From: Candidatus Daviesbacteria bacterium
GTDB taxonomy: Bacteria > Patescibacteriota > Microgenomatia > Daviesbacterales > UBA10151
Direction of reading: 5' to 3'
Length of the DNA stretch: 64,000 nt
Assembly (NCBI GenBank): GCA_016187035.1
Contig: JACPKL010000008.1
Span: forward strand, 35,990-99,989
This document shows positions 2,532 to 56,815 of this stretch, piece after piece. Positions within the stretch are counted from its first letter, which is position 1. Every line of letters starts with the position of its first letter. The position numbers and the translations under genes were made by a program. The notes below the pieces were generated by a model. The model worked only from the letters and a program-made list of their open reading frames with translations. It was not told the DNA's origin and made no database searches.

Positions 2532-3782
2532 ATGACTATTGGTTTTGACGGGTCAAGGGCTTTTGGACAAAATAAGCAAAGCTCTTCCTGGAATGAGCAA
2601 AGCTCTTCCTGGAATGAGCAAAGCTCTTCCTGGAATGAGCAAAGCTCTTCCTGGAATAAAACAGGAACAGAAAATTATTCTTATCAGCTGTTAAAAGCAT
2701 TGGCAAAAATTGACAATAAGAATAGCTATATTGTTTATTTAAGACCTGATGTGGTTATTCCTGGTTTTTCTTCTGTCGTTCCGAACGTAGTTATGTTCGC
2801 TCGCAATGACCAGGAGGATTGGCCGGAAAATTTCCAATTTAGGGTTATTCCCTGGCCCAGGTTTTGGACCCAGGGAGGCCTAGCTTTGCAGACTTTTAAA
2901 GACAAGTTGGATGTGCTATTTATTCCTTCCCATACCTTGCCTTTAATCAGGAAAAGAGGGCTTAAGACTATGATTACAGTACATGATTTAGGATCAGAGT
3001 ATCTGCCATCAATGCACCAAATTAAGCAGCGGTTATATTTGTCTTTTATGCAAAAATACCAGCTTAAAACTGCTAGCAAGATAATTGCAGTATCAAAGGC
3101 TACCAAACTAGATCTAATTAACAAAATAGGTATCAAGTCAGATAAAATAACAGTTGTTTATGAAGGATATGATGAAAAAAGATTTAAGATTCAAGATTTA
3201 AGATTTAAGAATGATATAAAAGTTAATAGTTTGAGATACTTTTTGTTTGTAGGGACAGTACAACCAAGGAAGAATTTGGAAAGGGTAATAAGAGCTTTCT
3301 CAACTCACCTCGAAGGTGAAAAAATGCAGTTACACCTTCGAGGTGGATTGAAGCTGCTGATTGCTGGTTCCAAGGGTTGGTTATCTGATGAAATATATAA
3401 ACTCCCTAAAAAACTGGGAATAGAGGATAAAGTCAAGTTTTTAGGCTATGTGCCTGACGAAAAGCTGGCTTATCTTTATAAAGGAGCTATAGCTTTGGTT
3501 TTTCCCTCTCTTTTTGAAGGATTTGGTTTGCCTATTCTGGAAGCCCAAGCTTGTAGTTGCCCGGTGATTACCTCAAACCTCTCATCCATGCCTGAAGTGG
3601 CAGGTAAAGGAGCAATTTTAGTGAATCCGTATTCTGTAGATGATATAGTAAGGGGGATGGTACAAGTTCAAAGTTCAAAGTTCAAAGTTCAAAGTTTGAT
3701 AAAAGCAGGGCTTCAGAATGTTAAAAGATTTAGCTGGGAAAAGGCAGCGAGGGAAACATTGAAAGTGCTATCGTCATCCTGA
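2532..3782 (+). CDS. Glycosyltransferase family 4 (GT-B, GT1-type C-terminal domain)
   Basis: FPSLFEGFGLPILEAQACSCPVITSNLSSMPEVAG (E-x7-E region). N-terminus MTIGFDGSRAF is typical of GT4. Carries several in-frame repeat insertions. Confidence 0.85.
   Translation: MTIGFDGSRAFGQNKQSSSWNEQSSSWNEQSSSWNEQSSSWNKTGTENYSYQLLKALAKIDNKNSYIVYLRPDVVIPGFSSVVPNVVMFARNDQEDWPENFQFRVIPWPRFWTQGGLALQTFKDKLDVLFIPSHTLPLIRKRGLKTMITVHDLGSEYLPSMHQIKQRLYLSFMQKYQLKTASKIIAVSKATKLDLINKIGIKSDKITVVYEGYDEKRFKIQDLRFKNDIKVNSLRYFLFVGTVQPRKNLERVIRAFSTHLEGEKMQLHLRGGLKLLIAGSKGWLSDEIYKLPKKLGIEDKVKFLGYVPDEKLAYLYKGAIALVFPSLFEGFGLPILEAQACSCPVITSNLSSMPEVAGKGAILVNPYSVDDIVRGMVQVQSSKFKVQSLIKAGLQNVKRFSWEKAARETLKVLSSS
2576..2659 (+). 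repeat. Tandem repeat, 21 bp x 4 (gcaaagctcttcctggaatga)
   Basis: Three identical units and a fourth with one mismatch. Encodes (QSSSWNE)x4 near the GT4 N-terminus. Confidence 0.95.
3179..3213 (+). repeat. Heptanucleotide-period array (aagattt family), in frame in GT4
   Basis: aagattt aagattc aagattt aagattt aagaatg. Translated KRFKIQDLRFKND. Confidence 0.85.
3306..3345 (+). repeat. Perfect hairpin element (13-bp stem, 14-nt loop), in frame in GT4
   Basis: cacctcgaaggtg (3306-3318) and caccttcgaggtg (3333-3345) are exact reverse complements. Translated HLEGEKMQLHLRG. A second copy lies at 59238-59307. Confidence 0.9.
3663..3696 (+). repeat. Heptanucleotide-period array (caaagtt), in frame in GT4
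   Basis: caagtt followed by caaagtt x4. Translated VQVQSSKFKVQS. Confidence 0.9.
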
Positions 3783-3887: not shown

Positions 3888-4661
3888 ATGAAGAAGGATG
3901 TTCTTGGAATCAAAATTGATGATGTTAATATTAACCAAGCTGTGGAAGTAGTATTTGGGTGGTTGAAAGAGGGAGGTAGGCGCTACATTGTTACTCCTAA
4001 TCCTGAGATAGTGGTGATGGCTCAAAAAGACCAAGAACTTAAAAATATTTTGAATAATGCAGATCTGGTAATTCCTGATGGGGTTGGTTTAAAAATAGCA
4101 ACTGATATAGTTTGTAATACTCCAGGAATAGACTTAATGGAAGCATTAATAAAATTAAGCAATGGAAAAGGCTTTACAACAGCCTTTTTAGGAGGCAAAG
4201 AAGGAGTAGCAGAAAAAGCAGCTGAGTGCTTACTGCGGAAGTATCCAAACCTTAAAATCTCATTCACTGGTTCTGGTGGTGAAATAAATGAGAATGGAGA
4301 GTTAATAGGAGAAGATTTAAGATTTAAGATTTATGATTTAAGAGATAAAAACGTTCATAAATCGTTAATCGTTAATCGTAAATCTCTGCCGAAGGCAGAT
4401 CTGCTCTTTATAGGTTTTGGTCCTCCAAAACAGGAAAAATGGATTGCTAAGAATTTAAATAAACTGCCTGTGAAGATAGCTATGGTTGTAGGGGGATCAT
4501 TAGATTATTTGTCTGGCCAAGTGCCAAGAGCTCCTAAATTTATCAGAAGCTTAGGATTGGAATGGCTATTTAGGCTAATAATTCAGCCCTGGAGGATCAG
4601 AAGACAGCTTGCGTTGCTCAAATATCTTTGGTTAATTTGGACAATGGATGGTGGAAAATAG
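3888..4661 (+). CDS. WecB/TagA/CpsF-family glycosyltransferase (GT26)
   Basis: VTPNPEIVVMAQKD, IPDGVGL, FIGFGPPKQEKWI, GGSLDYLSGQVPRAPKFIRSLGLEWLFRLIIQPWRIRR. Confidence 0.85.
   Translation: MKKDVLGIKIDDVNINQAVEVVFGWLKEGGRRYIVTPNPEIVVMAQKDQELKNILNNADLVIPDGVGLKIATDIVCNTPGIDLMEALIKLSNGKGFTTAFLGGKEGVAEKAAECLLRKYPNLKISFTGSGGEINENGELIGEDLRFKIYDLRDKNVHKSLIVNRKSLPKADLLFIGFGPPKQEKWIAKNLNKLPVKIAMVVGGSLDYLSGQVPRAPKFIRSLGLEWLFRLIIQPWRIRRQLALLKYLWLIWTMDGGK
4311..4385 (+). repeat. 75-nt heptamer-based imperfect hairpin, in frame in GT26 gene
   Basis: Left arm is aagattt-type units (4312-4346). Right arm is aaatcgt/taatcgt units (4356-4385), roughly the reverse complement. This is exactly 25 codons (EDLRFKIYDLRDKNVHKSLIVNRKS). 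Confidence 0.8.
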
Positions 4662-6055: not shown

Positions 6056-6147
6056 TGTCATTCTGAACGAAGTGAAGAATCTCTAGACTTGTTCTAAATA
6101 CATCTGAAATGAATTCAGAGATCCTTCGCTAATCGCTCAGGATGACG
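6056..6147. repeat. TGTCAT...ATGACG palindromic (MITE-like) element, 92 nt
   Basis: Left arm tgtcattctgaacgaagtgaagaatctct. Right arm agagatccttcgctaatcgctcaggatgacg. Fills the rplJ-rplL spacer and overlaps the last codons and stop of rplJ. Confidence 0.85.
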
Positions 6148-6679
6148 CTTGCGTGTCACCCCCCTTCATCTTTTGAATTTCTGAAAGTGCATATACTAAA
6201 TTTCTTAAGTTAGCTTGCAACACTCCCACAATTCCTTGCAAAGGAGCAACTAATACTCCTACTGTTTTAGCTCTTAGCTCCGGTTTTGAAGGAAGGGTGG
6301 AAAGTTGGATAATCTTTGCTTCATCCAGGCTGTCTTTACCTAAAAATCCTGATTTTACTTTACCTAAGCTGGCATCTTTTAATATTTTAACTAATATTTT
6401 AATAGGGGAGATCTCATCATCATAAGCAAAAAGTGCGGCAGTAGGACCTTCTAGATTGGAAGTTGGAAGTTGGAGGCTAGAAGCTGGAAGGGCACGCTCT
6501 AAAAGAGTATTCTTAGTAATACTAAATTCTGCAGATTGTTCCCTGAGTTTATTTCTTAGATCAGAGAGTTGCTTCATGGTCAGACCTTTGTAGTCTGTAA
6601 AAACCACTGCTTTAGCTTTAGCTAATTTTTCCTGTAATTTAATAACCAAATCTTGCTTTTGTTGTCTTGTTTTAGCCAT
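6137..6679 (-). CDS. rplJ: 50S ribosomal protein L10
   Basis: MAKTRQQKQDLVIKLQEKLAKAKAVVFTDYKGLTMKQLSDLRNKLRE. I place the start at ATG 6679. The 33 upstream codons of the track ORF look like non-coding leader. Confidence 0.85.
   Translation of the reverse strand: MAKTRQQKQDLVIKLQEKLAKAKAVVFTDYKGLTMKQLSDLRNKLREQSAEFSITKNTLLERALPASSLQLPTSNLEGPTAALFAYDDEISPIKILVKILKDASLGKVKSGFLGKDSLDEAKIIQLSTLPSKPELRAKTVGVLVAPLQGIVGVLQANLRNLVYALSEIQKMKGGDTQASS
6456..6490. repeat. Heptanucleotide-period array (ttggaag family), in frame in rplJ
   Basis: ttggaag ttggaag ttggagg ctagaag ctggaag on + strand. Read on the minus strand as PASSLQLPTSN. Confidence 0.8.
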
Positions 6680-11055: not shown

Positions 11056-11105
11056 GAAGCCGATAGTATAACAGACTATCGGTCCATTGTCAAGCAACTA
11101 TGGGT

Positions 11106-13002: not shown

Positions 13003-13899
13003 ATCCAGCTTTATTGATGGGCCCATGGTGGGTGAAAGGGAGACTTTTTTAATCCTGGATTTGCCTATGGTTTGGAGAAGAGTTTTAATATTAGCTGATA
13101 ACTCCTCAGTGGGTTGATTAAGTTTACCTAAACCAAGATGGATAACAGGAGCTTTGGCTTCTGTTTTATATTCTGAGCGAAGCGAAGAATTCAAGCTCTG
13201 CTTATATTCTGTTTTACCAGCCTGGAAAGACTCTACTGCCTTTTTTAAATCAGTCACAATAGTACCGCTCTTAGGATTTGGCATGAGGCCCTTAGGTCCT
13301 AAAATCCGGGCAACTTTAGCCAGTTTAGGCATACCAGCAGGTGTTGTCACAATTAAATCAAAATCTATTTTGCCTTTACTGATATTTTCAATAGTCTCAT
13401 CGTCACCCTCATAAGCTAAGATCCTTAATTTCTTGCCTGAGGCATAGGGGAGGGAAACCAGTCCCCGTAGCCCGGTTTGGATAGTTAAAATATGGGCTTC
13501 CAAAGTGCCTGTAAAGGCTGAGAAAGAATGTTTTTTTACCAGATCTACAGCCTCATTCAGAGGGTAGGTTTTACTTCTATCTAAGTCTTTAGTAGCTTGC
13601 TGGTATTTTTTAGATCTGGGCTTGGATTTAGCAGGTCTCCTGTTATCAGGTTTCTGTTTTCGGTTTTCGGATGTAAGTTTATCAGTTCTCTGTTTGTCTG
13701 TTTCTGAAACTGATAAACTGGTAACAGATTTACCTTTATCTGACAACTGAGAACTGAGAACCGATGACTGATCTTCTCCTTCCAGCTCTGCTTTGAGTTT
13801 TTCCACCAGCTCATCTGTCCTGCCTAGTTTTTTGGCAGGTTTTTTTGGTTCTTTTTGTTGGATGGAATCATCCATTATTTTTGTTTTAGTTTTACCCAT
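12988..13899 (-). CDS. rplA: 50S ribosomal protein L1 with about 95-aa N-terminal extension and an internal 12-aa insertion
   Basis: Core motifs [33 protein letters not shown]...[11 protein letters not shown] overlaps the rplK stop (ATGGGTAA), as in coupled rplKA. Confidence 0.9.
13166..13211. repeat. 36-nt element insertion bounded by 10-bp direct repeat TTATATTCTG, in frame in rplA
   Basis: TTATATTCTG at 13166-13175 and 13202-13211. Between them lies agcgaagcgaagaattcaagctctgc. Duplicates the EYK codons of L1. Confidence 0.85.
13746..13773. repeat. Heptanucleotide-period array (actgaga), in frame in rplA N-terminal extension
   Basis: actgaga actgaga accgatg actgatc. The neighbouring sequence 13649-13670 has ttttcgg units. 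Confidence 0.8.
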
Positions 13900-14317: not shown

Positions 14318-14351
14318 AATCTGATTTTGATATTTTACCTGACTCCAAACG

Positions 14352-14420
14352 AGATTTAAGATTTAGGAATTAAGATTCAAGATTTTTATTCTTAAATCAT
14401 AAATCTTATCTCTTAAATCT
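14352..14420. repeat. aagattt-family imperfect hairpin in the nusG-rplK spacer
   Basis: agatttaaga (14352-14361) is the exact reverse complement of tcttaaatct (14411-14420). The interior is made of aagattt-like units and their complements. Confidence 0.8.
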
Positions 14421-15108
14421 AGATTTTTTGTACCTGCAGAAAATCCAGTTCAACAGGTGTTTCCCTGCCAAATATAGAAACCAGAACCTTGATCTTTCCT
14501 CTTTCTTCATCCACATGATCTACTTTACCAATAAAGTCTGCAAACGGGCCGTCAACAATTTTAACAGTATCAGAAACAGTAAAAACCTGTTTAAAAGTGG
14601 GAGCTTCCTCTTTGGTGAATTTAACAATAGTAGCTACTTCAGCATCAGAAATTGGGGTAGGTTTATTTCCCATACCCACAAAAGAAGTGACTCCGGGGGT
14701 GGTCCGTACAGCCAGCCAGGATGCTTCATCCAAAATCATTTTTACCAGAATATATCCGGGAAAAATCTTTTCTTTAACTTCTATCTTTTTACCGCTCCTG
14801 ATTTCAATTTTATCCTGCATTGGCACCAGGACTTCCAGGATTTTTTCTTCCAGATGTTCTGATTCAATTCTCTGCTTTAAAGTAGCAGCCACCTTATTTT
14901 CATGGCCTGAATAGGTATGGACTACATACCATTTAGCATTGGGGTTAGAGGATTTGACGGTAGATGGTGGAAGATTGATGGTAGAATCTTGAGGATTGAT
15001 GATAGAAGGTGGATCTTCTTCTTTCGATTTTCCATCTTCTATTTTCAAAGTACTATCTTCTACTTTTCTATCATCTATTGTCTGTTCTTCTGTTTTATTA
15101 TTGTCCAT
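14419..15108 (-). CDS. nusG: Transcription termination/antitermination factor NusG with about 55-aa N-terminal extension
   Basis: WYVVHTYSGHENKV (NGN domain). KOW region VKIVDGPFADFIGKVDHVDEERGKIKVLVSIFGRETPVEL. Confidence 0.9.
   Translation of the reverse strand: MDNNKTEEQTIDDRKVEDSTLKIEDGKSKEEDPPSIINPQDSTINLPPSTVKSSNPNAKWYVVHTYSGHENKVAATLKQRIESEHLEEKILEVLVPMQDKIEIRSGKKIEVKEKIFPGYILVKMILDEASWLAVRTTPGVTSFVGMGNKPTPISDAEVATIVKFTKEEAPTFKQVFTVSDTVKIVDGPFADFIGKVDHVDEERGKIKVLVSIFGRETPVELDFLQVQKI
14959..15083. repeat. gatagaag-family imperfect hairpin, in frame in the nusG 5' extension
   Basis: The left arm ggtagatggtggaagattgatgg...gatgatagaaggtgga is collinear with the reverse complement of the right arm tccatcttctattttcaaag...tctatcatctattgtct. 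The right arm closely matches spacer 4741-4787. Confidence 0.75.
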
Positions 15109-37212: not shown

Positions 37213-37272
37213 TTTTCAATCATTGAATCATTGAACACTCATTGTAAATTGTAAATTGTAAATTGTAAATTG
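37213..37272. repeat. Dispersed repeat copy 2 plus gtaaatt heptamer array (x4)
   Basis: aatcattgaatcattgaacactcattg followed by gtaaatt x4 (37244-37271). Lies in the divergent spacer between the M50 gene and rpmB. Confidence 0.85.
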
Positions 37273-37291
37273 GTATGTTAAACTTAGCCTC

Positions 37292-37504: not shown

Positions 37505-38405
37505 GAGGAAAATCAGGGTAGCCGTTTAAGAAGTCTTTGAAGGATATTGGTTTTTTCCCCTCCATTTGCAATAAATGTTCATCCTTCCTGTCATTCTGAG
37601 CGATTAGCGAAGAATCTTCCATGGATCGGGAAGATTCCTCACTCTGTTTTGGATAACGTATGGGTGGCAAAAATTTAATAATTTTGTTATTCCATTTTGT
37701 CCATACCCCTGGCCAGGGATAATAAGCGCGGATCTCTCTGTCTAATTTTTCAGGTTGGGGAGGATTATTAATATTAAAATAACCATCTTCTTTAACAAAG
37801 TGTTTAGTGTAAGTAGCCTTGGAATGATCTTGGGGGGTAGGATTAATTGATCCTTCCAAGTATTGTTTTATTACCTTTAAAATTAGTTGTCCTCCTAGTT
37901 CATTTAGCTTAGTCAATAAAGTATCTCTAGTTTCTTTGGGAGTCAGTATATATTCCTGTTGGGCTAGTATATCTCCGCTATCTACCTCATCAGTTATTTG
38001 AATGATAGTAACTCCTGAAATCTTGTCTCCATTAAGAATAGCAGTAGGAGCAGGGGAAGGACCTCTATATTTGGGTAAAAGTGAATGATGGATATTTAAT
38101 GGAGCATATTTTGGTAAGGTTAGCAAGTCTTTAGACAGGATTAATCCATAATCTTCCACTACCAAAAAATCACTCTTCAGCTTGGCAATTTTATTTATTA
38201 CTTCCTTGTCTAATTTACTTGTTTCCAAAGTTGGAATATTTAATTCACTGGCTAATTTTTTAACAGGACTATCAGGAATTGTGATAACTAACGATACAGG
38301 AAAGATTGAATAGACAATCTTTAATCCAATAATTGAGTACTTTGTATTCCCAAAAAAAACTAGTTTAAGTTTTGAGTTTTGATTTGAAGTTTTAACATTT
38401 GACAT
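37473..38405 (-). CDS. fmt: Methionyl-tRNA formyltransferase
   Basis: VFFGNT..., NIHHSLLPKYRGPSPAPTAIL, C-terminal LQMEGKKPISFKDFLNGY. Position is downstream of def. Confidence 0.85.
   Translation of the reverse strand: MSNVKTSNQNSKLKLVFFGNTKYSIIGLKIVYSIFPVSLVITIPDSPVKKLASELNIPTLETSKLDKEVINKIAKLKSDFLVVEDYGLILSKDLLTLPKYAPLNIHHSLLPKYRGPSPAPTAILNGDKISGVTIIQITDEVDSGDILAQQEYILTPKETRDTLLTKLNELGGQLILKVIKQYLEGSINPTPQDHSKATYTKHFVKEDGYFNINNPPQPEKLDREIRAYYPWPGVWTKWNNKIIKFLPPIRYPKQSEESSRSMEDSSLIAQNDRKDEHLLQMEGKKPISFKDFLNGYPDFPLKQLLRTRLF
37589..37646. repeat. TGTCAT-type palindromic element, in frame in the fmt C-terminal domain
   Basis: tgtcattctgagcgattagcgaagaatcttcc-atggatc-gggaagattcctcactctg. The arm nearly matches the reverse complement of the right arm of the 6056-6147 element. 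Translated (minus) as about QSEESSRSMEDSSLIAQNDRK. Confidence 0.8.
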
Positions 38406-38422
38406 TTGAGTTTTGAGTTAAA
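38367..38422. repeat. Heptanucleotide-period array, 8 units, spanning fmt codons 1-13, the fmt/def spacer and the def stop
   Basis: aagtttt gagtttt gatttga agtttta acatttg acatttg agttttg agttaaa. The sense strand of fmt reads MSNVKTSNQNSKLK. Confidence 0.85.
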
Positions 38423-39367: not shown

Positions 39368-41403
39368 GGACTTCCTGATTTTGTTGCCTCTTTTAATTGT
39401 TCTAATGCTTCCAGATAATCTGGTTTTAAGTTTAAGGTAGTTTTTAGATTTTCAATTTCTTCATCCTTTTTACCGATACTTTCTAAAATTAAAGCCTTAT
39501 TATAATAAAGCTTAGGATCAGTTGGGGCCAGCTTGATAGCCATATCTAAAGCTTCCAAAGTTTTGTTAACATACTTTTTATCTAAACTAGCTAATTCATA
39601 ATATGTCCTAATAGCTGTTCTCCAAAAAGAAACGTTTTTAGGGCTAATTGTTAAACTGATTTTTAATTGATTTAAAGCCTCATCTTCTAAAGCAGCAGAA
39701 AGAGAAGCGTCAGTTTCTTTTAAAGCAGCAGCAGCCGCAGCTGCAGAATAGCTAAGTTCAGAACGGTAGAACGGCTCTCCTTTATTTAAGTCAGAAGCCA
39801 TGCTTAATAAATTATATGCTTTGCCAGGATTACCTAAATCTGAGGCTTTTTGACCTTGATTGAACAGTGTATCAGCATACCAAAGCTGGAAGATAGAATA
39901 TAGAAGATAGAGGGTGGAAAAAATCACAATCCCTTTAGCTATATTAGTATAAATTTTCCGACGGTAGATGATAGAAAATAGATGATGGAATTTTGAAGCT
40001 GGAAGATGGAAGGTAGAAATAGAATCAGTAGCAACAAAAACCAAAGCAGGAAAAAGGTAAAAAAAGACAGCTATGATAACTACTGAGAATAGGAAGAAGT
40101 TATAGATAAGATAGGAGATATATGAGGCAAGAATACTATAAAGTAGCAGATTTTTGGTTCCTTTGCGTTTTAGTATAAGCGAAGCTTGATACTTCGTATT
40201 AACAATTATAAATTTTATAAAAATTATAATAATTATCAAATAAGTTCCAAATCCTACAATGCCTGTGGTAGCTAGATAATTCAAATACTCATTATGGGCT
40301 TTATTGTATAAAAAATCCCACTCAGAGGTTAAGTTATGCTCCTTTGGCCTGAATTGATAATATGAATAAGCAAATGTCTCCACTCCTGAGCCAAACAAGG
40401 GATAATGTTTAAAAATATCCAGGGCTCCATGCCAGACAATAAACCTGATTTGTCCTGATTCTGTGCCGCCATTTTCCAGTTGTGTACCTACAGAAGGATT
40501 GGAAGGTAAGCTGATGGTAGGTCTTGCTGGAGCAGCAAATTTAGAGACTAACCTGAAAGAGGTTAAAGCAGACCCAAAAAGAACATTAATAACCAGAAAA
40601 CTTAATATTACTATAAGTAATGATTTCAACTTAACTATATTTACGATTCCACCCTTAGGGTGGAGCCTTAGAATATAGAGACCGATAAGAGTGATAAATC
40701 CAACTATTAGGCCTAATGTTGGACCTCTTGAGTAGGTAAAGGTAAAAGCCAGGTAATAAATAACAAGTAGTAAGTAGTAAGTAGTAAGTAGTAAGGGGGA
40801 AGGAGCAGATAAGAAGAAATACAGGGCAGGGAAGATCAACATGGCAAGGTAGGCTGCCATCCAGTTTGGCTGGCCTAAGGTGGCAAAAACTCTTTCATAA
40901 ACTTTTTGCACCCAGCAGTCAGCATTAAATTCTCCTCTTAAAATTACACAGGAAGGTGATACCTGAAAGTGTTCTAAAATTCCCCAGACAGCAATAATCA
41001 GACCTGAAGCTAAGCCTATTTTTAAAAGGGGCTTAATTTTATCTGCTGTAACATTAGATACAAAGGCCCAGTAAAGCAAAAGATAACAGATTATGGATAA
41101 GAGGCCTCCATTGGAGCGTGAATAATAACCCCAGATAGAAGTATGAAGGTCTATTGAGAAAATAGTTGATAAAATATTAGCCCCTAAAAACAGCAGTAAT
41201 GGAATGTCCAAGGGTGTACGATTTAAGATTAAAGATTTATGATTTATGATTTTAAGAAGCCAACTCCCTACTATAACTACAGTCAATCCATAAGTTAAAA
41301 TCATCTTGTTATATTCAAAAAGCTCATAATTTAAAGAGGTCCAAAAAAGAGGAGTTAGAAAAAAGAGAGTATAAAAAGAATAGGAAATAATTTTATCAAG
41401 CAT
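39364..41403 (-). CDS. O-antigen-ligase-like polytopic membrane protein with C-terminal TPR repeats
   Basis: YSRGPTLGLIVGFITL (Wzy_C-like) and NEYLNYLATTGIVG. The C-terminal 150 aa are TPR-like (AYNLLSMASDLNKGEPFY..., YYNKALILESIGKKDEEI). Confidence 0.65.
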   Translation of the reverse strand: MLDKIISYSFYTLFFLTPLFWTSLNYELFEYNKMILTYGLTVVIVGSWLLKIINHKSLILNRTPLDIPLLLFLGANILSTIFSIDLHTSIWGYYSRSNGGLLSIICYLLLYWAFVSNVTADKIKPLLKIGLASGLIIAVWGILEHFQVSPSCVILRGEFNADCWVQKVYERVFATLGQPNWMAAYLAMLIFPALYFFLSAPSPLLLTTYYLLLVIYYLAFTFTYSRGPTLGLIVGFITLIGLYILRLHPKGGIVNIVKLKSLLIVILSFLVINVLFGSALTSFRLVSKFAAPARPTISLPSNPSVGTQLENGGTESGQIRFIVWHGALDIFKHYPLFGSGVETFAYSYYQFRPKEHNLTSEWDFLYNKAHNEYLNYLATTGIVGFGTYLIIIIIFIKFIIVNTKYQASLILKRKGTKNLLLYSILASYISYLIYNFFLFSVVIIAVFFYLFPALVFVATDSISTFHLPASKFHHLFSIIYRRKIYTNIAKGIVIFSTLYLLYSIFQLWYADTLFNQGQKASDLGNPGKAYNLLSMASDLNKGEPFYRSELSYSAAAAAAALKETDASLSAALEDEALNQLKISLTISPKNVSFWRTAIRTYYELASLDKKYVNKTLEALDMAIKLAPTDPKLYYNKALILESIGKKDEEIENLKTTLNLKPDYLEALEQLKEATKSGSP
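39884..40025. repeat. gatagaag/ggaagat-family repeat blocks, in frame in a TM region
   Basis: agctggaagatagaatatagaagatagagggtgg (39884-39917) and ggtagatgatagaaaatagatgatgg...ggaagatggaaggtagaaatagaat (39963-40025). The antisense strand is read as FSTLYLLYSIFQLW / DSISTFHLPASKFHHLFSIIY. Confidence 0.75.
40767..40794. repeat. Heptanucleotide array gtagtaa x4, in frame in a TM region
   Basis: Four exact gtagtaa units, read on the minus strand as LLLTTYYLL. Confidence 0.9.
41221..41255. repeat. aagattt-family heptamer array, in frame
   Basis: atttaag attaaag atttatg atttatg attttaa, read on the minus strand as LKIINHKSLILN. Confidence 0.85.
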
Positions 41404-43942: not shown

Positions 43943-45013
43943 ATGCTACATACTCCTTTTTATGATCCAAGTAAAAGTTATGAAGAAAATTATGATAAGG
44001 GGCCATATGGTGCATTTGCAGATGGGCAAGTTTACCAACAGATTAACAAACCAACTTATGACTTTCTAGGTCAAAAAGTGTATTTGCCTTTTGGTATTCC
44101 GGCAGGACCGCTTTTGAATTCTAACTTTTGTAAGAGCGCTTTTGAAAAGGGGTTTGATATTTGTGTTTATAAAACTGTCAGGGCAGAAAGTTTTCCCTGC
44201 CATCCATTTCCAAATATTTTGGCTGTAAAAATTGAAGGTGATTTAACCGCTGTAAAAGCCCGGAGTAAACTGACTGCTGATAATGAATACTGCGAACCTT
44301 TAAGTATTACCAACTCTTTTGGGGTACCTTCTAAAGAGCCTTCTGTTTGGCAGGAAGATGTTAAAAAGGCTATCAGATATGCAGGAAAAGGCCAATGTTT
44401 AGTTTTAAGCTTTATGGGTACTGTTAAACAAAACCAGACAGCAGATGAATTTGTGGCAGATTTTGCTAAAGCTGCCAAGAAGGCCAAAGAAACAGGGGCA
44501 AAAATATTAGAAGCTAACTTATCCTGTCCAAATATTGGGAATGAGGGGCTGGTTTGTTATAACCTGGAAATGACTCAGAAGGTTTGTGAGGCTCTCAGGA
44601 GAGAAATTGGTAATACCCCTTTAATATTAAAAGTAGGTTACTTTCAAAATAATGAAGACTTAAACAAACTGGTTGAGGTTGCTTCAAAATATGCCCAAGG
44701 CATTGCTGCTATTAATACTGTTTCAGCTGAGGTGGTGGATAAAGCAGGTAATCAGGTTTTACCTGGAAAGAACAGGCTCAGATCAGGAGTATGTGGGACT
44801 GCTATTAAATGGGCAGGTTTGGATATGGTGAGAAAACTTAAATTCAAAATTCAAAATTCAAAATTCAAAATTCAAATTATAGGGGTAGGGGGAGTGATGA
44901 AGCAAGAGGATTATTTTGAATATATTGAAGCCGGGGCAGACTGTGTGATGAGTGCCACCGGAGCCATGTGGAACCCTTATTTGGCCCAGGAGATTAAAAA
45001 GATATTACGTTAG
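43943..45013 (+). CDS. pyrD: Dihydroorotate dehydrogenase-like (class 1) flavoenzyme
   Basis: FGIPAGP, LEANLSCPNIGNEG, IIGVGGV...GADCVMSATG. Confidence 0.7.
   Translation: MLHTPFYDPSKSYEENYDKGPYGAFADGQVYQQINKPTYDFLGQKVYLPFGIPAGPLLNSNFCKSAFEKGFDICVYKTVRAESFPCHPFPNILAVKIEGDLTAVKARSKLTADNEYCEPLSITNSFGVPSKEPSVWQEDVKKAIRYAGKGQCLVLSFMGTVKQNQTADEFVADFAKAAKKAKETGAKILEANLSCPNIGNEGLVCYNLEMTQKVCEALRREIGNTPLILKVGYFQNNEDLNKLVEVASKYAQGIAAINTVSAEVVDKAGNQVLPGKNRLRSGVCGTAIKWAGLDMVRKLKFKIQNSKFKIQIIGVGGVMKQEDYFEYIEAGADCVMSATGAMWNPYLAQEIKKILR
44837..44878 (+). repeat. Heptanucleotide array tcaaaat, six units = 42 nt = 14 codons, in frame in pyrD-like gene
   Basis: cttaaat tcaaaat tcaaaat tcaaaat tcaaaat tcaaatt. 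Translated LKFKIQNSKFKIQI. Confidence 0.95.
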
Positions 45014-45604: not shown

Positions 45605-46323
45605 TAGATTCTCTTTGATTGTTTTAAATATTCAACACTCTCATTATACTGCTCTTGGGTTATTGTACTTTTTTCCAGGTAATAATCTAAAATCCCTTTT
45701 AATGTCAAAGGCGCATAGAATTGATAACCTGCTTGTTCAATCATTTCTTTTCCACCCTCACCTCTATCAATCAGCACAATTAGTCCTAGGACTTTATAAC
45801 CCAACTGTTCAGCCACTTGAAAGCTTCTGAATTTGGATTCTCCTTTGGTGATAACATCATCAATAATAAGTATAGTTTTGCCCTTACCTTTTGGCGCATC
45901 TTTGGCAGGTAAAATTCTGGGGCTGCCAGGCTGGTCATCTTTCTCAAAGATTGTCAAATAAGGGATTTTAGTCACAGTGGCAAATTCTTTAGCATAAGGT
46001 ATGGCTGCATTAGGTATGCCTGTACAAGATTGGGGAATTTGTTTAAGGGTCATTTTTGCCATGCATTCGGCGATCTTTTTGTTTAGGCTGTCAGGAAGAT
46101 TTCTTAAATTAACAATAATTGGAGAAAGCGGAGCTTCAGGGTGTTTTTCATGGTATACAAAAGCAAATTCAGATGGGTCAATCCGAAAGTCAATAGGGCT
46201 GGTATCCCTTATTACATAATAAAATTCATAACTACCATCAGGATTTTGTTTTTTCCTCCTGACTTTGGCATGAGTTTTAGTGCTGATTAATAAGTCAGCT
46301 AATTTTTTCTCTGATTGTTTCAT
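45604..46323 (-). CDS. pyrE: Orotate phosphoribosyltransferase-like
   Basis: PRPP-binding motif TILIIDDVITKGES. Lies between pyrF and the four-helix-bundle gene. Confidence 0.6.
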   Translation of the reverse strand: MKQSEKKLADLLISTKTHAKVRRKKQNPDGSYEFYYVIRDTSPIDFRIDPSEFAFVYHEKHPEAPLSPIIVNLRNLPDSLNKKIAECMAKMTLKQIPQSCTGIPNAAIPYAKEFATVTKIPYLTIFEKDDQPGSPRILPAKDAPKGKGKTILIIDDVITKGESKFRSFQVAEQLGYKVLGLIVLIDRGEGGKEMIEQAGYQFYAPLTLKGILDYYLEKSTITQEQYNESVEYLKQSKRI

Positions 46324-47047
46324 GTAATTTTAAAACAGCTTCTCTGGGGTTAGCTGCAAAAATAATATCCCTTGAGGAGTTTATTATCAAACCCTGCTTT
46401 TTGCTATCAAGGCCATTTTCCAATGTAGCTTTTAAGTTTCCACCCTGGGCCCCAATTCCTGGAACTAATATTGGCATATCGCCTATGATTTCCCTGACCT
46501 TTTTTAACTGCTTAGGATATGTTGCTCCCACCACCACTCCTACATTATTATTTTTATTCCAACTCTTAACATGTTCAGCTACTACCTGGTACAGTGGTTT
46601 ATCACCCACTTTTAAATCCTGGAATTCTGCTGCTCCTGGATTTGAAGTTCTCACAAGTATAATGACCCCTTTATCTGCTCTATCCAGGAAAGGCTGTAAA
46701 GATTCCCTACCCAAATAAGGGGAAACAGTTACTCCGTCAACTCCTAAAGTGTCAAAAATAGCCTTAACATAAGCTTTATTGGTGGAGGCCACATCACCTC
46801 TTTTAGCATCTAAAATAATGGGAACTTCCGGATATTTTTCTTTAATGTATTTAATTGTTTTTTCTAATCCTTCTAATCCTTCTAATCCTTCTGCTTCATA
46901 AAAAGCTGATTGGGGTTTATAGCAACAGACTAAGTCTGAGGTTTGATCAATTATAGACTTATCAAACTTAAAATCACCAATGTCTAGCCCCACACACACA
47001 AACTTTCCCTCAGCCCATTTAGCTTTTAATTTAGTTAAAAAGTCCAC
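46295..47047 (-). CDS. pyrF: Orotidine-5'-phosphate decarboxylase
   Basis: VCVGLD..., ILDAKRGDVASTN, PGIGAQGG. Confidence 0.8.
   Translation of the reverse strand: MDFLTKLKAKWAEGKFVCVGLDIGDFKFDKSIIDQTSDLVCCYKPQSAFYEAEGLEGLEGLEKTIKYIKEKYPEVPIILDAKRGDVASTNKAYVKAIFDTLGVDGVTVSPYLGRESLQPFLDRADKGVIILVRTSNPGAAEFQDLKVGDKPLYQVVAEHVKSWNKNNNVGVVVGATYPKQLKKVREIIGDMPILVPGIGAQGGNLKATLENGLDSKKQGLIINSSRDIIFAANPREAVLKLHETIREKIS
46862..46892. repeat. 9-bp tandem repeat ttctaatcc x3, in frame in pyrF
   Basis: Read on the minus strand as EGLEGLEGLE. The k-mers are shared with 8351-8410 and 45231-45269. Confidence 0.9.
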
Positions 47048-54787: not shown

Positions 54788-56815
54788 ATGCAGAATTTAG
54801 TTGTAGTGGAAAGCCCTACGAAGGCCCGCACGCTACAGAAATTTCTTGGAGATAAATATCAAATCGAAGCTTCAATGGGACATATTAGGGATTTGCCAAA
54901 GTCTGACTTTGGGGTAGATATTCTTCATGATTTTGAGCCACAATATGTTATCCCTCGCGATAAAAGGAAGAAAGCATTTGAGTTAAAAAGAATAGCTAAT
55001 AAGGCTCAGACTTTATATTTGGCAACAGATCCTGATCGGGAAGGTGAGGCTATAGCCTGGCATATAGCAGAGTTGCTACGCAATTCTGAACTCAAAACTC
55101 AAAACTCAAAAGTGAAAAGTGAAAACATAAGACGTGTGGTTTTTCATGAAATCACAGAAGAGGCTATTAAAGAAGCATTTAAGCATCCTAGAGAACTAAA
55201 CATGCAGCTGGTTGATGCCCAGCAAGCCAGAAGAGTATTGGACAGGCTGGTTGGTTATAAACTGTCTCCTTTGCTTTGGCAAAAAGTTAGAAAAGGTTTA
55301 TCAGCAGGAAGGGTGCAGTCTGTAGCTTTAAGGTTAATTGCAGAAAGGGAAAGGGAGATCCAGGCATTTAAAGCAGTGGAGTATTGGGTTATTGAAGCAG
55401 AGCTGCAGGCAGAAAAGGGGATGTTTTTAGCCACCTTAATTGAATTAAATGATAAAAAATTAGAAATTAAAAATGAGCAGGAAGCTAAAACCCATGTATC
55501 CAATTTAGAAAAAGCAAATTACATTGTAGAAAAGGTTATTCAAAGGCAGGTCCGCCGTTACCCTTATCCTCCATTTACCACTTCTACCTTGCAGCAAACT
55601 GCAGCCAATAGACTTGGTATGTCAGCAAAAAAAACCATGATGTTAGCCCAAGCTTTATATGAAAGAGGATTAATTACTTATATGAGGACAGATTCTGTTA
55701 ATTTATCCGTTCAGGCAGTTGGGTCTGTTAGATTATATATTGAAAATTATATTGGTAAGTCTTACATACCAAATACTCCCAGGATTTTTAAATCTAAATC
55801 CAAAAACGCCCAGGAAGCCCATGAGGCGATACGTCCTACGGACGTCAAATTCGAAATTCGAAATGTTTCGCAACGCAAAACTGTCCTCGGCAGAGCGAAA
55901 TTCGAAAATTCTTTAAATAGGGATCATTTAAGGCTTTATGATTTGATTTGGAAAAGGTTTGTAGCCTGCCAGATGAGTGAGGCATTAATTGATCAGACTA
56001 CGGTTGATGTAAAAGCAGCTGAATATTTACTGAGAGCCACAGGCAGTGTGATTAAATTTGAAGGTTGGCTTAAGTTATATGAAAAAGATTTAGAAGATAA
56101 AGAGGAAAAGAAACAAGTATTACCAAACTTATCAGAAGATCAGAACCTTAATTTAAATAAACTTTTACCTACACAGCATTTTACAGAGCCTCCTCCAAGG
56201 TTTAATGAGGCTTCTTTAATAAAAAAATTAGAGGAACTTGGTATTGGCAGGCCTTCCACCTATGCACCTATTTTATCTACTATCCAGGAAAGGTTTTATG
56301 TTGAGAAAATGGAGCGGAAATTTGTCCCAACCGCCTTAGGGTTTGCTGTAATTGATTTTTTACTAAAATATTTTCCGGATGTTTTCGACTATTCTTTTAC
56401 TGCCCGGATGGAAAATGAGCTGGACGATATTTCAAGAGGGGAGAGACAGTGGAAACCAACTATAAGAGAGTTTTATGGGCCTTTTGAGAAAAAATTAGAA
56501 GAAGTAGTAAAAACAGCAGAAAAAGTTAAAATGGAAGTTACTTTAGCCGGTAAAAAATGTCCAAAGTGTGATAAGGATTTAATAATCAGAATAGGCAGGT
56601 TTGGCAAGTTTTTAGCATGCTCGTCTTTTCCTGAGTGTAAGCATACAGAAAGCTTGGAAGAAAAGGTTAATGTCAGATGCCCGACAGACGCAGGAGAGGT
56701 TGTTATTAGAAAAACCAGGCGCGGTAAAACTTTTTATGGCTGCAAAAACTGGCCTGGTTGTAAGTTTGCCTCTTGGACCAAGCCAAAAAGCCCGTCAGTT
56801 GACACTAAAGCCTAA
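54788..56815 (+). CDS. topA: DNA topoisomerase I
   Basis: VVVESPTKA, DPDREGEAIAWH, YMRTDS, EAHEAIRPT. C-terminal Cys4 zinc ribbons (CPKCDK...CSSFPEC). Confidence 0.95.
   Translation: MQNLVVVESPTKARTLQKFLGDKYQIEASMGHIRDLPKSDFGVDILHDFEPQYVIPRDKRKKAFELKRIANKAQTLYLATDPDREGEAIAWHIAELLRNSELKTQNSKVKSENIRRVVFHEITEEAIKEAFKHPRELNMQLVDAQQARRVLDRLVGYKLSPLLWQKVRKGLSAGRVQSVALRLIAEREREIQAFKAVEYWVIEAELQAEKGMFLATLIELNDKKLEIKNEQEAKTHVSNLEKANYIVEKVIQRQVRRYPYPPFTTSTLQQTAANRLGMSAKKTMMLAQALYERGLITYMRTDSVNLSVQAVGSVRLYIENYIGKSYIPNTPRIFKSKSKNAQEAHEAIRPTDVKFEIRNVSQRKTVLGRAKFENSLNRDHLRLYDLIWKRFVACQMSEALIDQTTVDVKAAEYLLRATGSVIKFEGWLKLYEKDLEDKEEKKQVLPNLSEDQNLNLNKLLPTQHFTEPPPRFNEASLIKKLEELGIGRPSTYAPILSTIQERFYVEKMERKFVPTALGFAVIDFLLKYFPDVFDYSFTARMENELDDISRGERQWKPTIREFYGPFEKKLEEVVKTAEKVKMEVTLAGKKCPKCDKDLIIRIGRFGKFLACSSFPECKHTESLEEKVNVRCPTDAGEVVIRKTRRGKTFYGCKNWPGCKFASWTKPKSPSVDTKA
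55085..55126 (+). repeat. Heptanucleotide array tcaaaac/tgaaaag, six units = 42 nt = 14 codons, in frame in topA
   Basis: tctgaac tcaaaac tcaaaac tcaaaag tgaaaag tgaaaac. Translated SELKTQNSKVKSEN. Confidence 0.95.
55844..55912 (+). repeat. 69-nt cgaaatt-type repeat block, in frame in topA directly after EAHEAIRPT
   Basis: cgaaattcgaaa at 55852-63 and 55896-907 brackets tgtttcgcaacgcaaaactgtcctcggcagag. Translated VKFEIRNVSQRKTVLGRAKFENS (23 codons). Confidence 0.8.

What the first reader, a model, noticed from the sequence alone, without database searches (positions are those of the whole stretch)
44837..44878. Heptanucleotide-period micro-arrays, inside genes in frame as well as in spacers (STRR-like)
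More than ten loci show short arrays with a strict 7-nt period. The unit families are:
- tcaaaat x6 (44837-44878, pyrD-like)
- tcaaaac/tgaaaag x6 (55085-55126, topA)
- aaaactc-type x8 (38367-38422, fmt start and def stop)
- aagattt (3179-3213 GT4; 4312-4346 GT26; 14352-14420 spacer; 41221-41255 membrane protein)
- caaagtt (3663-3696)
- ttggaag (6456-6490, rplJ)
- actgaga (13746-13773, rplA)
- gtagtaa x4 (40767-40794)
- gtaaatt x4 (37244-37271, spacer)
The two cleanest coding arrays are each exactly six units, which is 42 nt or 14 codons, the smallest even multiple that keeps frame. The TCAAAAY family gives the recurring peptide QNSK in three unrelated proteins: topA LKTQNSKVK, pyrD-like FKIQNSKFKIQ and fmt TSNQNSKLK. 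Heptamer tandem repeats are known from cyanobacteria (STRR), but I am not aware of them being described as in-frame components of housekeeping genes.
Basis: partly seen in the sequence, partly recalled or inferred. Interest (0 to 1): 0.7.

Follow-up and report, generated by a model that had tools for sequence, protein, structure and literature searches.

The report
Seven-base tandem repeats inside Daviesbacteria genes
This uncultured groundwater bacterium (Candidatus Daviesbacteria) and its close relatives carry many short tandem repeats of exactly seven bases, mostly in frame inside ordinary genes; they stay at the same spots across species while their sequence turns over, and look like a lineage-specific by-product of DNA copying filtered by selection, not a switch.

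Summary
The window has 10-11 period-7 arrays; 50 shuffles gave none, and no other period from 4 to 15 behaves this way. The window comes from a Candidatus Daviesbacteria MAG. Nearly all Daviesbacteria-like relatives sampled share the trait, and about 50 other Patescibacteria loci of similar GC lack it. About 84% of arrays lie in intact ORFs, including PyrD-like, TopA, L10, L1, Fmt, GT4, WecG and Wzy-like genes. At two orthologous sites the segment length is constant across species while the repeat unit differs, and outgroups carry non-periodic sequence of the same length. Where length does change within the array, it is by exactly 21 nt. Stop-creating units are broken at the would-be stops, and units are G-poor on the sense strand. 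No out-of-frame alleles were seen. My best reading is STRR-like heptanucleotide microsatellites, made and homogenised by register-7 slippage or template switching and filtered by selection. The cause of the 7-nt step is unknown. I rate this a new variant of a known kind, of moderate interest.

The parts
44837..44881 (+). Focal array, (AAATTCA)5.3 perfect plus ragged ends. It is in frame in the PyrD-like gene and encodes LKFKIQNSKFKIQII (aa 299-313).
   Evidence: The AF2 model places it at the end of helix 286-304, a loop, and the start of strand 311-315, with pLDDT above 90.
43943..45013 (+). Host gene, a DHO_dh-family (PyrD-like) TIM-barrel protein of 356 aa. NCBI names it tRNA-dihydrouridine synthase.
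   Evidence: Pfam PF01180. It matches P0001 at 100% identity, from Candidatus Daviesbacteria. An ortholog sits next to pyrC-, pyrE- and pyrF-type genes.
55082..55126 (+). Array AACTCAA x3.3 then AAGTGAA, in the TopA Toprim domain, encoding NSELKTQNSKVKSEN.
   Evidence: It lies in a hypervariable loop whose length varies among orthologs, several of which carry their own 7-aa-periodic peptides.
38364..38422 (-). Array of about 8 CTCAAAA-type units. It spans the def stop codon, the 12-nt spacer and the first 14 codons of fmt (MSNVKTSNQNSKLK).
   Evidence: It is identical in an independent assembly, L084.
3178..3214 (+). AAGATTT array in the GT4 glycosyltransferase, in the inter-domain linker. The one would-be in-frame TAA is broken to CAA.
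3659..3700 (+). (AAGTTCA)4.7 perfect array near the C-terminus of GT4, encoding VQVQSSKFKVQS.
4310..4385 (+). Opposed double array inside the WecG/TagA (GT26) gene: AAGATTT x4.6 followed by its near reverse complement AATCGTT x3.6. The arms are 31 nt and 81% complementary. The would-be TAA is broken to TAT.
6456..6490 (-). TTGGAAG x5 array (82% matches) inside the Ribosomal_L10 domain of rplJ, encoding LPASSLQLPTSN. There is no net insertion relative to the Pfam model.
   Evidence: NCBI's start makes it aa 64-75 of a 180-aa L10. It is 100% identical in four independent contigs.
13740..13773 (-). Short CTGAGAA array (about 3 copies) in the N-terminal low-complexity extension of L1 (rplA).
14347..14425 (.). 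Opposed double array in the nusG-rplK spacer: AGATTTA-type units followed by AAATCTT-type units. The arms are 36 nt and 78% complementary, so it could form a hairpin.
   Evidence: The RNA fold gives -21.7 kcal/mol with z = -3.0. Its left arm is 93.5% identical to the WecG arm.
37238..37276 (.). Intergenic perfect array (ATTGTAA)4.6, downstream of fmt.
40758..40803 (-). (ACTTACT)4.4 array in a transmembrane segment of the Wzy_C/TPR membrane protein, encoding LLLTTYYLLL.
   Evidence: The orthologous site has constant length with different units across species.
41220..41257 (-). AAATCAT/AAATCTT array near the N-terminus of the Wzy_C/TPR protein, encoding LKIINHKSLILN. The would-be stop is broken.
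   Evidence: The length is the same as in the non-periodic outgroup L045.

Best explanation
These are STRR-like heptanucleotide microsatellites, and they are a genome-wide trait of a clade of Candidatus Daviesbacteria (Patescibacteria).

Inferred mechanism. During replication or repair in this lineage, nascent strands tend to realign out of register by 7 nt or multiples of it, and sometimes onto the opposite strand. A local 7-mer is thereby copied over its neighbours, and existing arrays are repeatedly re-homogenised (concerted evolution).

Shown outcome. Because the genome is about 90% coding, most arrays arise inside genes, where selection acts as a filter:
- Frameshifted states are not seen.
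- The one clean array-length difference traced at the DNA level between orthologs is exactly 21 nt (3 units).
- Many arrays replace ancestral codons with no net length change.
- Units that would create a stop in one of the three frames are broken at that position.
- Units are biased towards sequences whose seven codons, read in all three frames, are all tolerable. They are G-poor and rich in TCA, TTA and CTA on the sense strand.
- Arrays persist at a few permissive sites: helix-loop-strand junctions, a transmembrane segment, hypervariable loops and N-terminal extensions.

I judge the arrays to be near-neutral passengers rather than regulatory or phase-variation devices. Their main consequence is rapid block-wise turnover of 7-aa peptide segments.

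Why the step is 7 nt is not explained. The only published idea is that about 7 nt is the polymerase-DNA contact length (Mrazek 2007, as summarised in PMC4679880).
For: Period specificity and excess:
- The window has 10 arrays against 0 in 50 shuffles, and none at other periods.
- Exact lag-7 tracts of 17 nt or more number 64 in 426 kb of Daviesbacteria-like DNA and 5 in 711 kb of other Patescibacteria. Tracts of 21 nt or more number 27 against 0. Other periods are equal in the two sets.

Lineage specificity: arrays occur in the window, most of L001-L019, L025, L028 and L031. Loci L032-L080 have none, including the low-GC ones.

Sequence-agnostic: there are at least 40 distinct unit classes, and none of the canonical STRR, TAACTGA or G-rich units.

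No avoidance of genes: 65 of 77 arrays lie in ORFs of at least 100 codons, against 89% coding density.

In-place replacement and unit turnover, seen at two sites:
- At the PyrD-like site the segment is 21 aa in 91 of 117 orthologs. At least 9 different 7-aa-periodic families occupy it, alongside a widespread non-periodic type that resembles the outgroups.
- At the Wzy-like TM site the length is constant in 19 orthologs. The units are CTTACTA, CATTGTA, TTGTTAC and CTATACG, and the outgroup is non-periodic.
- Between species, the identical-codon fraction is 0.80 inside the array and 0.49 in the rest of the gene.
- Several units equal 7-mers already present in the ancestral-type segment (inference).

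Quantised indel: L081 has 1 unit where L083 has 4, a clean 21-nt gap.

Stop patching: 18 of 65 coding arrays have a stop-containing consensus unit. Of 222 mismatches to consensus, 25 fall in would-be stop codons, against 3.1% expected.

Strand asymmetry: 28% of units contain a stop on the sense strand and 77% on the antisense strand, against a 38% background for both.

Ordered structural context: AF2 pLDDT is above 90 over the array-coded residues.

Opposed double arrays, a signature of strand switching: 15 of 77 arrays exceed the control 95th percentile, against about 4 expected.

No off-phase alleles: 0 of 18 Wzy-like and 0 of 117 PyrD-like orthologs are out of frame.

Precedent: heptanucleotide units are the commonest long-SSR class in many prokaryotes, and slippage has been proposed as the cause (PMC4679880).
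Against: - No slippage event was observed directly. There are no reads and no near-identical strains with different copy numbers.
- Simple plus or minus 7-nt slippage cannot by itself turn non-periodic coding sequence into an array without lethal frameshift intermediates. A zero-net-length conversion, or paired events, must be assumed.
- Arrays are strongly over-represented in envelope-glycan genes: 6 of 11 in 6.4% of the window, p = 2e-5, and 39 of 65 in the Wzy-like gene across loci. A purely neutral model must attribute this to tolerance.
- Three giant hypothetical ORFs (11.5 kb), which might be expected to be tolerant, carry no arrays.
- The related loci were all fetched around one gene, so array counts outside the window are not independent samples.
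- The stop-patching test is partly circular, because 'coding' was defined by an open frame.
- The gene tree is too star-like to tell one ancient array from repeated origins.
Confidence: 0.6

Rival explanations
1. The arrays are contingency loci. Heptanucleotide arrays in envelope-biogenesis genes (Wzy-like, GT4, WecG) would act as slippage-driven switches: plus or minus 1 unit gives a frameshift (on/off), and plus or minus 3 units gives an in-frame peptide variant. This would diversify the cell surface of an episymbiotic bacterium, and the arrays in housekeeping genes would be spill-over from the same mutational process.
For: - The unit length is not a multiple of 3, and the arrays are inside CDS.
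- Arrays are strongly enriched in envelope-glycan genes: 6 of 11 window arrays in 6.4% of the sequence, p = 2e-5.
- 39 of 65 coding arrays across loci lie in the Wzy-like gene.
- neuO in E. coli K1 works exactly this way, with a similar unit (AAGACTC) (PMC13001214).
Against: - All 18 Wzy-like orthologs are full length, even though each carries 1-4 arrays.
- 0 of 117 PyrD-like orthologs are out of frame. In neuO, 66% of genomes are phase-OFF (PMC13001214).
- The arrays are short, mostly 4-6 units, whereas neuO has 3-53.
- Most arrays are not near the 5' end; relative positions run from 0.02 to 0.92.
- Arrays also sit in TopA, L10, L1 and Fmt, where on/off switching is not plausible.
- Segment length is conserved at the TM-segment site.
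Confidence: 0.12
2. The 7-nt periodicity is itself selected as a DNA or RNA element. Examples would be phased binding sites for an abundant single-strand-binding or cold-shock-type protein (one OB fold per heptamer), hairpin-forming double arrays acting as transcript-stability or attenuation signals, or a nucleoid or replication signal.
For: - Periodicity is maintained at fixed sites across species while the unit sequence changes. This is what selection on periodicity rather than on sequence would give.
- Codon identity is higher inside arrays, 0.80 against 0.49.
- About 20% of arrays are opposed pairs able to form hairpins. The one in the nusG-rplK spacer folds better than shuffles, z = -3.0.
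- CspB binds heptamer direct repeats with weak sequence specificity (as reviewed in PMC4679880).
Against: - At least 40 unrelated unit classes rule out a sequence-specific reader.
- Arrays are scattered through gene bodies with no consistent position relative to starts, stops or operon structure.
- Concerted evolution by slippage explains homogeneity without invoking function.
- The unit composition follows protein-coding tolerance, with sense/antisense asymmetry, rather than a structural rule.
- There are no matches to known RNA families.
Confidence: 0.1
3. Selection acts at the protein level for 7-residue (heptad-like) peptide repeats such as FKIQNSK, and the nucleotide periodicity is a by-product.
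For: The repeats translate to 7-aa periodic peptides at structurally defined places. neuO's heptad repeats increase enzyme activity with copy number (PMC13001214).
Against: - A 7-aa peptide repeat needs only 21-nt periodicity. Here the DNA is periodic at 7 nt, so the three frames of one unit encode unrelated residues.
- Perfect arrays include all synonymous positions.
- Intergenic arrays exist (37241-37272; 14347-14425).
- Orthologs carry chemically different peptides at the same site.
Confidence: 0.03
4. The arrays are chance low-complexity sequence in an AT-rich genome, or an assembly artefact.
For: The genome is AT-rich (37% GC), and many units are A-rich.
Against: - All 50 dinucleotide-preserving shuffles gave 0 arrays.
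- Other periods are absent.
- Other Patescibacteria of equal or lower GC have none.
- The arrays recur in about 20 MAGs from different projects.
- They are base-identical in independent assemblies.
- The arrays are shorter than a sequencing read.
Confidence: 0.01

Closest known systems
Cyanobacterial STRR (short tandemly repeated repetitive heptanucleotides; Calothrix, Anabaena, Nostoc)
   Same: Both are strictly 7-nt tandem units, present in many dispersed copies per genome, with several unit families in one genome. Both are lineage-restricted and have no established mechanism. STRR are also known inside a functional gene (RNase P RNA; mentioned in PMC2858038, details from my own knowledge).
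   Different: The host is a small-genome Patescibacterium. The canonical STRR units are absent, and there are at least 40 AT-rich unit classes. Arrays are short (4-9 units). 84% are inside protein-coding ORFs, whereas described heptamers in Anabaena are 68% intergenic and under-represented on the coding strand (PMC4692102).
Heptanucleotide class of prokaryotic long simple sequence repeats (Mrazek, Guo & Shah 2007, as summarised in PMC4679880 and PMC4692102)
   Same: Heptanucleotide units dominate over all other unit lengths from 5 to 11 nt. The phylogenetic distribution is sporadic, and slippage linked to a polymerase footprint of about 7 nt has been proposed.
   Different: That survey reported units that are multiples of three as the ones found in coding regions, and long-unit SSRs mainly in large, GC-rich genomes. 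Here a low-GC, reduced genome carries them mostly in CDS, at conserved orthologous sites.
E. coli K1 neuO heptanucleotide VNTR (AAGACTC)n (PMC13001214)
   Same: It is an in-frame heptanucleotide array inside a CDS that is translated in all three frames of the unit into a 7-aa repeat. It is only functional when the frame is kept. The unit is nearly the same as the AAAACTC/TCAAAAC family here; my own translation of the neuO unit gives LKTQDS-like residues, against LKTQNSK in TopA.
   Different: neuO is one phage-borne, dispensable gene. Its array sits at the 5' end, has 3-53 units, and is phase-OFF in 66% of genomes. Here arrays are short and scattered through about 1 gene in 6 of the window, including essential genes, with no out-of-frame alleles seen.
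G-rich heptamers GGGAATC / GGGGA(C/T)T of Xanthomonas and Nostoc (PMC4692102) and TAACTGA repeats of Beggiatoaceae and Microcystis (PMC4679880)
   Same: These are genome-wide tandem heptamers typical of particular lineages.
   Different: Those have one dominant unit per lineage, are mainly intergenic near gene ends, and have proposed G-quadruplex or translational roles. Here there is no dominant unit, no G-richness, and the arrays are mainly intragenic.

Membership tests
Cyanobacterial STRR sensu stricto | Tandem repeats with a 7-nt unit | tested here: met
   TRF and custom lag-7 scans.
Cyanobacterial STRR sensu stricto | Many dispersed arrays per genome | tested here: met
   10-11 arrays in 64 kb, and about 1.6 per 10 kb across related loci.
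Cyanobacterial STRR sensu stricto | Canonical units: STRR1 CCCCA(A/G)T, STRR2 TT(G/T)GTCA, STRR3 CAACAGT | tested here: not met
   There are 0 tandem occurrences in the window. The units here are AT-rich and diverse. The canonical unit sequences are quoted from my own knowledge of Mazel et al. 1990.
Cyanobacterial STRR sensu stricto | Host is a (heterocystous) cyanobacterium | tested here: not met
   The proteins are 100% identical to Candidatus Daviesbacteria MAG entries, and the relatives are all Patescibacteria.
Prokaryotic heptanucleotide long SSRs (Mrazek 2007 class) | Tandem 5-11-nt units longer than the genome's composition predicts, with 7 nt the dominant unit length | tested here: met
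   The class is as described in PMC4679880.
Prokaryotic heptanucleotide long SSRs (Mrazek 2007 class) | Units that are not multiples of 3 are depleted in coding regions (a typical feature, not a definition) | tested here: not met
   65 of 77 arrays are in ORFs, against 89% coding density.
Phase-variable contingency locus (neuO type) | SSR whose unit is not a multiple of 3, inside a CDS | tested here: met
Phase-variable contingency locus (neuO type) | Out-of-frame (OFF) alleles common among genomes, with widely varying copy number | tested here: not met
   0 of 18 Wzy-like and 0 of 117 PyrD-like orthologs are out of frame. Segment length is constant in most.
Phase-variable contingency locus (neuO type) | Host genes are dispensable surface or antigen genes | tested here: inconclusive
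   6 of 11 window arrays are in GT4, WecG and Wzy-like genes. The others are in TopA, L10, L1, Fmt and the PyrD-like gene.
Phase-variable contingency locus (neuO type) | Unit-number polymorphism within a population | not testable with these tools
   No reads are available. The only independent assemblies of the species are identical at the two arrays they cover.
Mobile insertion (MITE-like element) as the source of the arrays | The array adds length relative to empty orthologous sites and shares sequence with other copies | tested here: not met
   There is no net length change at the PyrD-like site or at the two Wzy-like sites. Units differ between loci. Only the AAGATTT-type double arrays share a 31-nt arm, and just 2 copies of it were found in about 480 kb.

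The most novel reading that the evidence does not exclude
Daviesbacteria (and a few neighbouring Patescibacteria lineages) possess a distinct, lineage-specific mutational process: a register-7 templated 'overwrite', meaning gene conversion between adjacent heptamers or transient strand switching. It would rewrite short stretches of DNA in place without changing their length. It would be concentrated in envelope-biogenesis proteins and would act as a built-in local diversifier, changing whole 7-aa blocks at once. The reduced replication and repair gene set of these tiny genomes could point to the enzyme responsible for the long-noted excess of heptanucleotide repeats in prokaryotes.
Probability: 0.15. 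Interest if true: 0.8.

Novelty: new variant of a known kind. Interest (0 to 1): 0.55.

Why it matters
Heptanucleotide repeats have been known since 1990 in cyanobacteria, and since 2007 as the commonest long microsatellite class in prokaryotes. Neither their origin nor the reason for the 7-nt step has been explained. The described cases are mostly intergenic.

This clade offers three things:
- Small genomes (an inference from the group; not measured here), which are about 90% coding in this window, in which the process is forced to act inside core genes.
- Orthologous sites where array birth, unit turnover and 3-unit contraction can be read directly from comparative data.
- Closely related lineages with and without the trait. 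A presence/absence comparison of replication and repair genes could therefore nominate the responsible enzyme.

It also shows that essential, well-folded proteins can carry segments whose sequence is dictated by a DNA-level repeat process. In the PyrD-like TIM barrel this is a helix-loop-strand junction, and L10 and TopA are further examples. This matters for annotation, alignment and phylogenetics of candidate-phyla proteins, because these segments evolve in concert and not site by site.

Tried and rejected
- The primary survey paper (Mrazek 2007, PMC1895974) is not held. I rely on its description in PMC4679880 and PMC4692102.
- Literature searches for heptanucleotide or tandem repeats together with Patescibacteria, Daviesbacteria or 'candidate phyla radiation' returned nothing relevant.
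- Looking for strain-level copy-number variants failed. The 90%-identity clusters of the array-bearing proteins are singletons, except Fmt. The second Fmt member and four Logan contigs with L10 are identical at the arrays. Polymorphism is therefore untested, not excluded.
- The neighbour-joining tree of PyrD-like orthologs, with the array segment masked, is star-like. It cannot tell a single ancient array from repeated origins.
- The stop-patching enrichment is partly circular, because coding arrays were defined by an open frame. I use it only as a consistency check.
- I tested whether the AAGATTT-family loci are copies of a high-copy mobile palindrome. BLAST found only the spacer element itself and the WecG arm in about 480 kb, so I rejected a general origin of this kind.
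- I looked for a 'tolerance' pattern among the large ORFs. ClpB-like, PBP, CTP synthase and aspartate kinase genes lack arrays, but so do three giant hypothetical ORFs. This is inconclusive.
- The Rfam scan found only three tRNAs, and no array lies in a known RNA.
- I did not use the metagenome scan or the third protein search. The species is absent from JGI sources, so the expected gain was small.
Full report
**1. The observation**

The focal locus is as described. Window 44840-44876 is a perfect 37-nt run of AAATTCA (5.3 copies), with ragged ends over 44837-44881. TRF reports 23 period-7 rows among 70. A lag-7 scan requiring at least 18 of 21 matches finds 10 arrays in the window. All 50 dinucleotide-preserving shuffles gave none. 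Periods 4-15 also gave none, apart from one 9-mer repeat. Perfect tracts of 3 or more copies number 6 at period 7 and 0 at periods 5, 6, 8 and 10-15. Some are weaker than stated: the rplA array has about 3 copies, and the fmt/def array has 78% matches with an indel.

**2. Host genes and organism**

The arrays lie in ORFs with strong Pfam matches on both sides:
- GT4 (two arrays) and WecG/GT26 (two arrays)
- L10 and L1
- Fmt, where the array spans the def stop, the spacer and fmt codons 1-14
- a Wzy_C+TPR membrane protein (two arrays)
- a DHO_dh-family protein
- TopA

Two arrays are intergenic, at 37241-37272 and in the nusG-rplK spacer.

The proteins are identical to entries from one Candidatus Daviesbacteria MAG, on a 183-kb contig. 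NCBI's gene starts keep the L1 and L10 arrays inside the CDS. Independent SRA assemblies of the same species are base-identical across the def-fmt array and the L10 array. The arrays are therefore not assembly artefacts.

**3. A lineage trait**

I fetched 80 loci from one genome per species around the PyrD-like ortholog. Period-7 arrays, and only period 7, occur in the window, most of L001-L019, L025, L028 and L031. Loci L032-L080 have none, including a dozen with GC of 39% or below.

Exact lag-7 tracts of 17 nt or more number 64 in 426 kb of Daviesbacteria-like DNA, against 5 in 711 kb of other Patescibacteria. Tracts of 21 nt or more number 27 against 0. All other periods are equally frequent in both sets. 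The excess therefore runs continuously from two-unit proto-repeats up to nine-unit arrays.

A caveat applies. The related loci all surround one gene, so array counts there are not independent. The window is the only unbiased sample.

**4. Anatomy in coding DNA**

65 of 77 arrays lie in ORFs of at least 100 codons, against a coding density of 89%. Coding DNA is not avoided. Tract lengths run continuously from 26 to 63 nt, with a median of 33, and are not multiples of 21.

There are at least 40 unit classes. Many fit NTCAAAA, which explains the shared QNSK peptides.

Units are mildly depleted of stop triplets on the sense strand (28% against a 38% background). They are strongly enriched on the antisense strand (77% against 38%, p = 1.6e-10; 28 of 40 distinct classes). 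Sense-strand composition is A 37, T 33, C 20, G 10%.

My interpretation is an inference. In an array every base is read at codon positions 1, 2 and 3. A G next to T gives TGA or Cys, while C gives Ser or Thr. A three-frame tolerance filter would therefore favour units rich in TCA, TTA and CTA.

18 of 65 coding arrays have a consensus unit that would create a stop, and the deviations sit at those codons. In the window, ATT-TAA is changed to ATT-CAA in GT4 and to ATT-TAT in WecG. That test is partly circular.

**5. Orthologous sites**

At the focal site, the distance between the conserved KWAG and GVGG motifs is 21 aa in 91 of 117 orthologs and 90 nt in most loci. Different Daviesbacteria nevertheless carry arrays of different units there:
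- TTCAAAA (window, L003)
- AAATCAA (L005)
- AAAGTCA (L010)
- ACGATTN (L007, L012, L015)
- AGCYAAY (L002, L019)
- AGGCARY (L006, L008)
- ACAGGKN (L014, L017, L025)
- AAGGGGA (L018)

A non-periodic 'VKIRQEAGVDLKII' type is widespread in the clade and resembles the outgroups. Several units equal 7-mers already present in that ancestral-type DNA, for example AAAATCA from the Lys-Ile codons. This suggests in-situ spread (inference).

The AF2 model has mean pLDDT 83. It places residues 299-313 at the end of helix 286-304, a loop, and the start of strand 311-315, with pLDDT above 90. This is ordered TIM-barrel structure, not a linker.

The same pattern recurs in a transmembrane segment of the Wzy-like protein. 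Length is constant in 19 orthologs. The units are CTTACTA (nine genomes), CATTGTA, TTGTTAC and CTATACG, and the outgroup is non-periodic. Between carriers, identical codons at identical residues reach 0.80 in the array and 0.49 elsewhere.

In TopA the array instead occupies a hypervariable Toprim loop whose length varies widely. Other orthologs have their own 7-aa-periodic peptides there, so this one is a net insertion.

**6. Dynamics**

Two PyrD-like orthologs are exactly 7 aa shorter. At the DNA level, L081 has one ACGATGA unit where L083 has four ACGATAA units. This is a clean 21-nt gap in an otherwise collinear region, and it is the in-frame quantum expected for slippage under frame selection.

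No out-of-frame allele was seen in 18 Wzy-like genes (1-4 arrays each) or in 117 PyrD-like genes.

About 15 of 77 arrays, against roughly 4 expected, have an opposed partner array forming a hairpin-capable inverted repeat. In the window these are WecG 4313-4385 and the nusG-rplK spacer 14347-14425 (RNA fold -21.7 kcal/mol, z = -3.0). Their left arms are 93.5% identical over 31 nt. Opposed arrays are what strand-switching during synthesis would produce (inference).

**7. Explanation**

I conclude that these are STRR-like heptanucleotide microsatellites. They are generated and kept homogeneous by out-of-register (7-nt) slippage or template switching that is peculiar to this lineage. Selection on reading frame, stop codons, three-frame amino-acid tolerance and protein length then filters them.

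Shown:
- period specificity and lineage specificity
- in-place replacement of ancestral codons
- unit turnover at fixed sites
- a 21-nt indel within an array
- absence of off-phase alleles

Inferred:
- the slippage or conversion mechanism
- near-neutrality

Unknown:
- why the step is 7 nt; the only published idea is a polymerase contact length (Mrazek 2007, via PMC4679880)
- how non-periodic coding sequence becomes periodic without a frameshifted intermediate

**8. Rivals**

- Phase variation is the main rival. Arrays are enriched in envelope-glycan genes: 6 of 11 in 6.4% of the window, p = 2e-5, and 39 of 65 in the Wzy-like gene. E. coli neuO uses a very similar unit. However, neuO has 3-53 units at the 5' end and is OFF in 66% of genomes (PMC13001214). 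Here no OFF allele was seen, the arrays are short, and they also sit in essential genes.
- A selected DNA or RNA periodicity is not excluded. It lacks any positional logic, and the unit diversity rules out a sequence-specific reader.
- Protein-level heptad selection fails because the DNA period is 7 nt, not 21, and intergenic arrays exist.
- Chance and artefact are excluded.

**9. Comparison with known systems and novelty**

The broad class is known:
- cyanobacterial STRR
- the heptanucleotide class of prokaryotic long SSRs
- G-rich heptamers of Xanthomonas and Nostoc, and TAACTGA repeats of Beggiatoaceae

Those are mostly intergenic, usually have one dominant unit, and are reported as under-represented in ORFs (PMC4692102, PMC4679880). 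A 2015 paper noted that no detailed literature on heptameric repeats existed (PMC4692102).

The following features are not described in anything I could search:
- The host is a reduced, low-GC Patescibacterium.
- The arrays are predominantly intragenic, including in core genes.
- Orthologous sites persist with unit turnover and no length change.
- There is an opposed-array sub-class.

I rate this as a new variant of a known kind, of moderate interest. Its main value is as a tractable comparative system for the unexplained 7-nt bias.

Noticed in passing
window 6057-6146 (rplJ-rplL spacer) and about 37590-37650 (inside fmt, minus strand); also L001, L009, L017 and L019 inside the Wzy-like gene: There is a palindromic MITE-like element (GTCATTCTGAACGAAGTGAAGAATCTC ... 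GAGATCCTTCGCTAATCGCTCAGGATGAC). One copy is intergenic. One partial copy is in frame in the Fmt C-terminal domain (peptide ...EDSSLIAQNDRK...). Further copies sit in frame in a variable loop of Wzy-like orthologs (peptides HPEGKARRI / RFFASLRMT). All four independent Logan contigs carrying rplJ terminate inside the 6057-6146 copy, as expected for a dispersed repeat. In-frame palindromic insertions recall Rickettsia palindromic elements.
   Followed up: partly
window 2571-2657: A near-perfect 21-nt tandem repeat (4.1 copies, 98%) encodes (NEQSSSW)x4. It is inserted in the N-terminal loop of the GT4 glycosyltransferase, between FDGSRAF and GTENY. The period is 3 x 7 nt, but the three 7-mers are unrelated.
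   Followed up: partly
window 43943-45013; L083 1471-4048: NCBI names the array-bearing DHO_dh-family protein tRNA-dihydrouridine synthase. In one ortholog's contig it sits next to DHOase (pyrC-type), a phosphoribosyltransferase (pyrE-type) and OMP decarboxylase (pyrF). It is therefore more likely a dihydroorotate dehydrogenase.
   Followed up: partly
L002 Wzy-like gene (peptide DKQSLRPDGLKRL) and P0089 PyrD-like ortholog (KKVTGDKQSLRPGGLRLQG): The same 9-10-aa insertion (QSLRP[DG]GL) appears next to or inside heptamer-array sites of two unrelated proteins in different genomes. This may be another small dispersed in-frame element.
   Followed up: no
L028 (7768-8101) and L031 (seven arrays over 21 kb): In the PyrD-like tree, two loci fall outside the Daviesbacteria clade. 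Their records are mislabelled 'uncultured Gammaproteobacteria'. They also carry period-7 arrays, though not at the PyrD-like site. The trait is therefore patchy across neighbouring Patescibacteria lineages.
   Followed up: no
window 12988-13899 (rplA): Ribosomal protein L1 has an N-terminal low-complexity extension of about 90 residues, rich in K, S, D and E. It precedes the canonical start of the L1 fold ([22 protein letters not shown]...). NCBI annotates 295 aa.
   Followed up: partly
window 7849-11097, 16182-19964 and 22198-26685: Three very large ORFs (1082, 1260 and 1495 aa) have no Pfam match, or only an fn3 domain. The largest contains Gly/Ala-rich 15-33-nt repeats at 24493-24752. None carries a heptamer array.
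   Followed up: no
window 46862-46892: A perfect 9-nt tandem repeat (TTCTAATCC x3.4) is the only non-heptamer array to pass the same threshold. It lies in the ORF at 46295-47047, minus strand.
   Followed up: no
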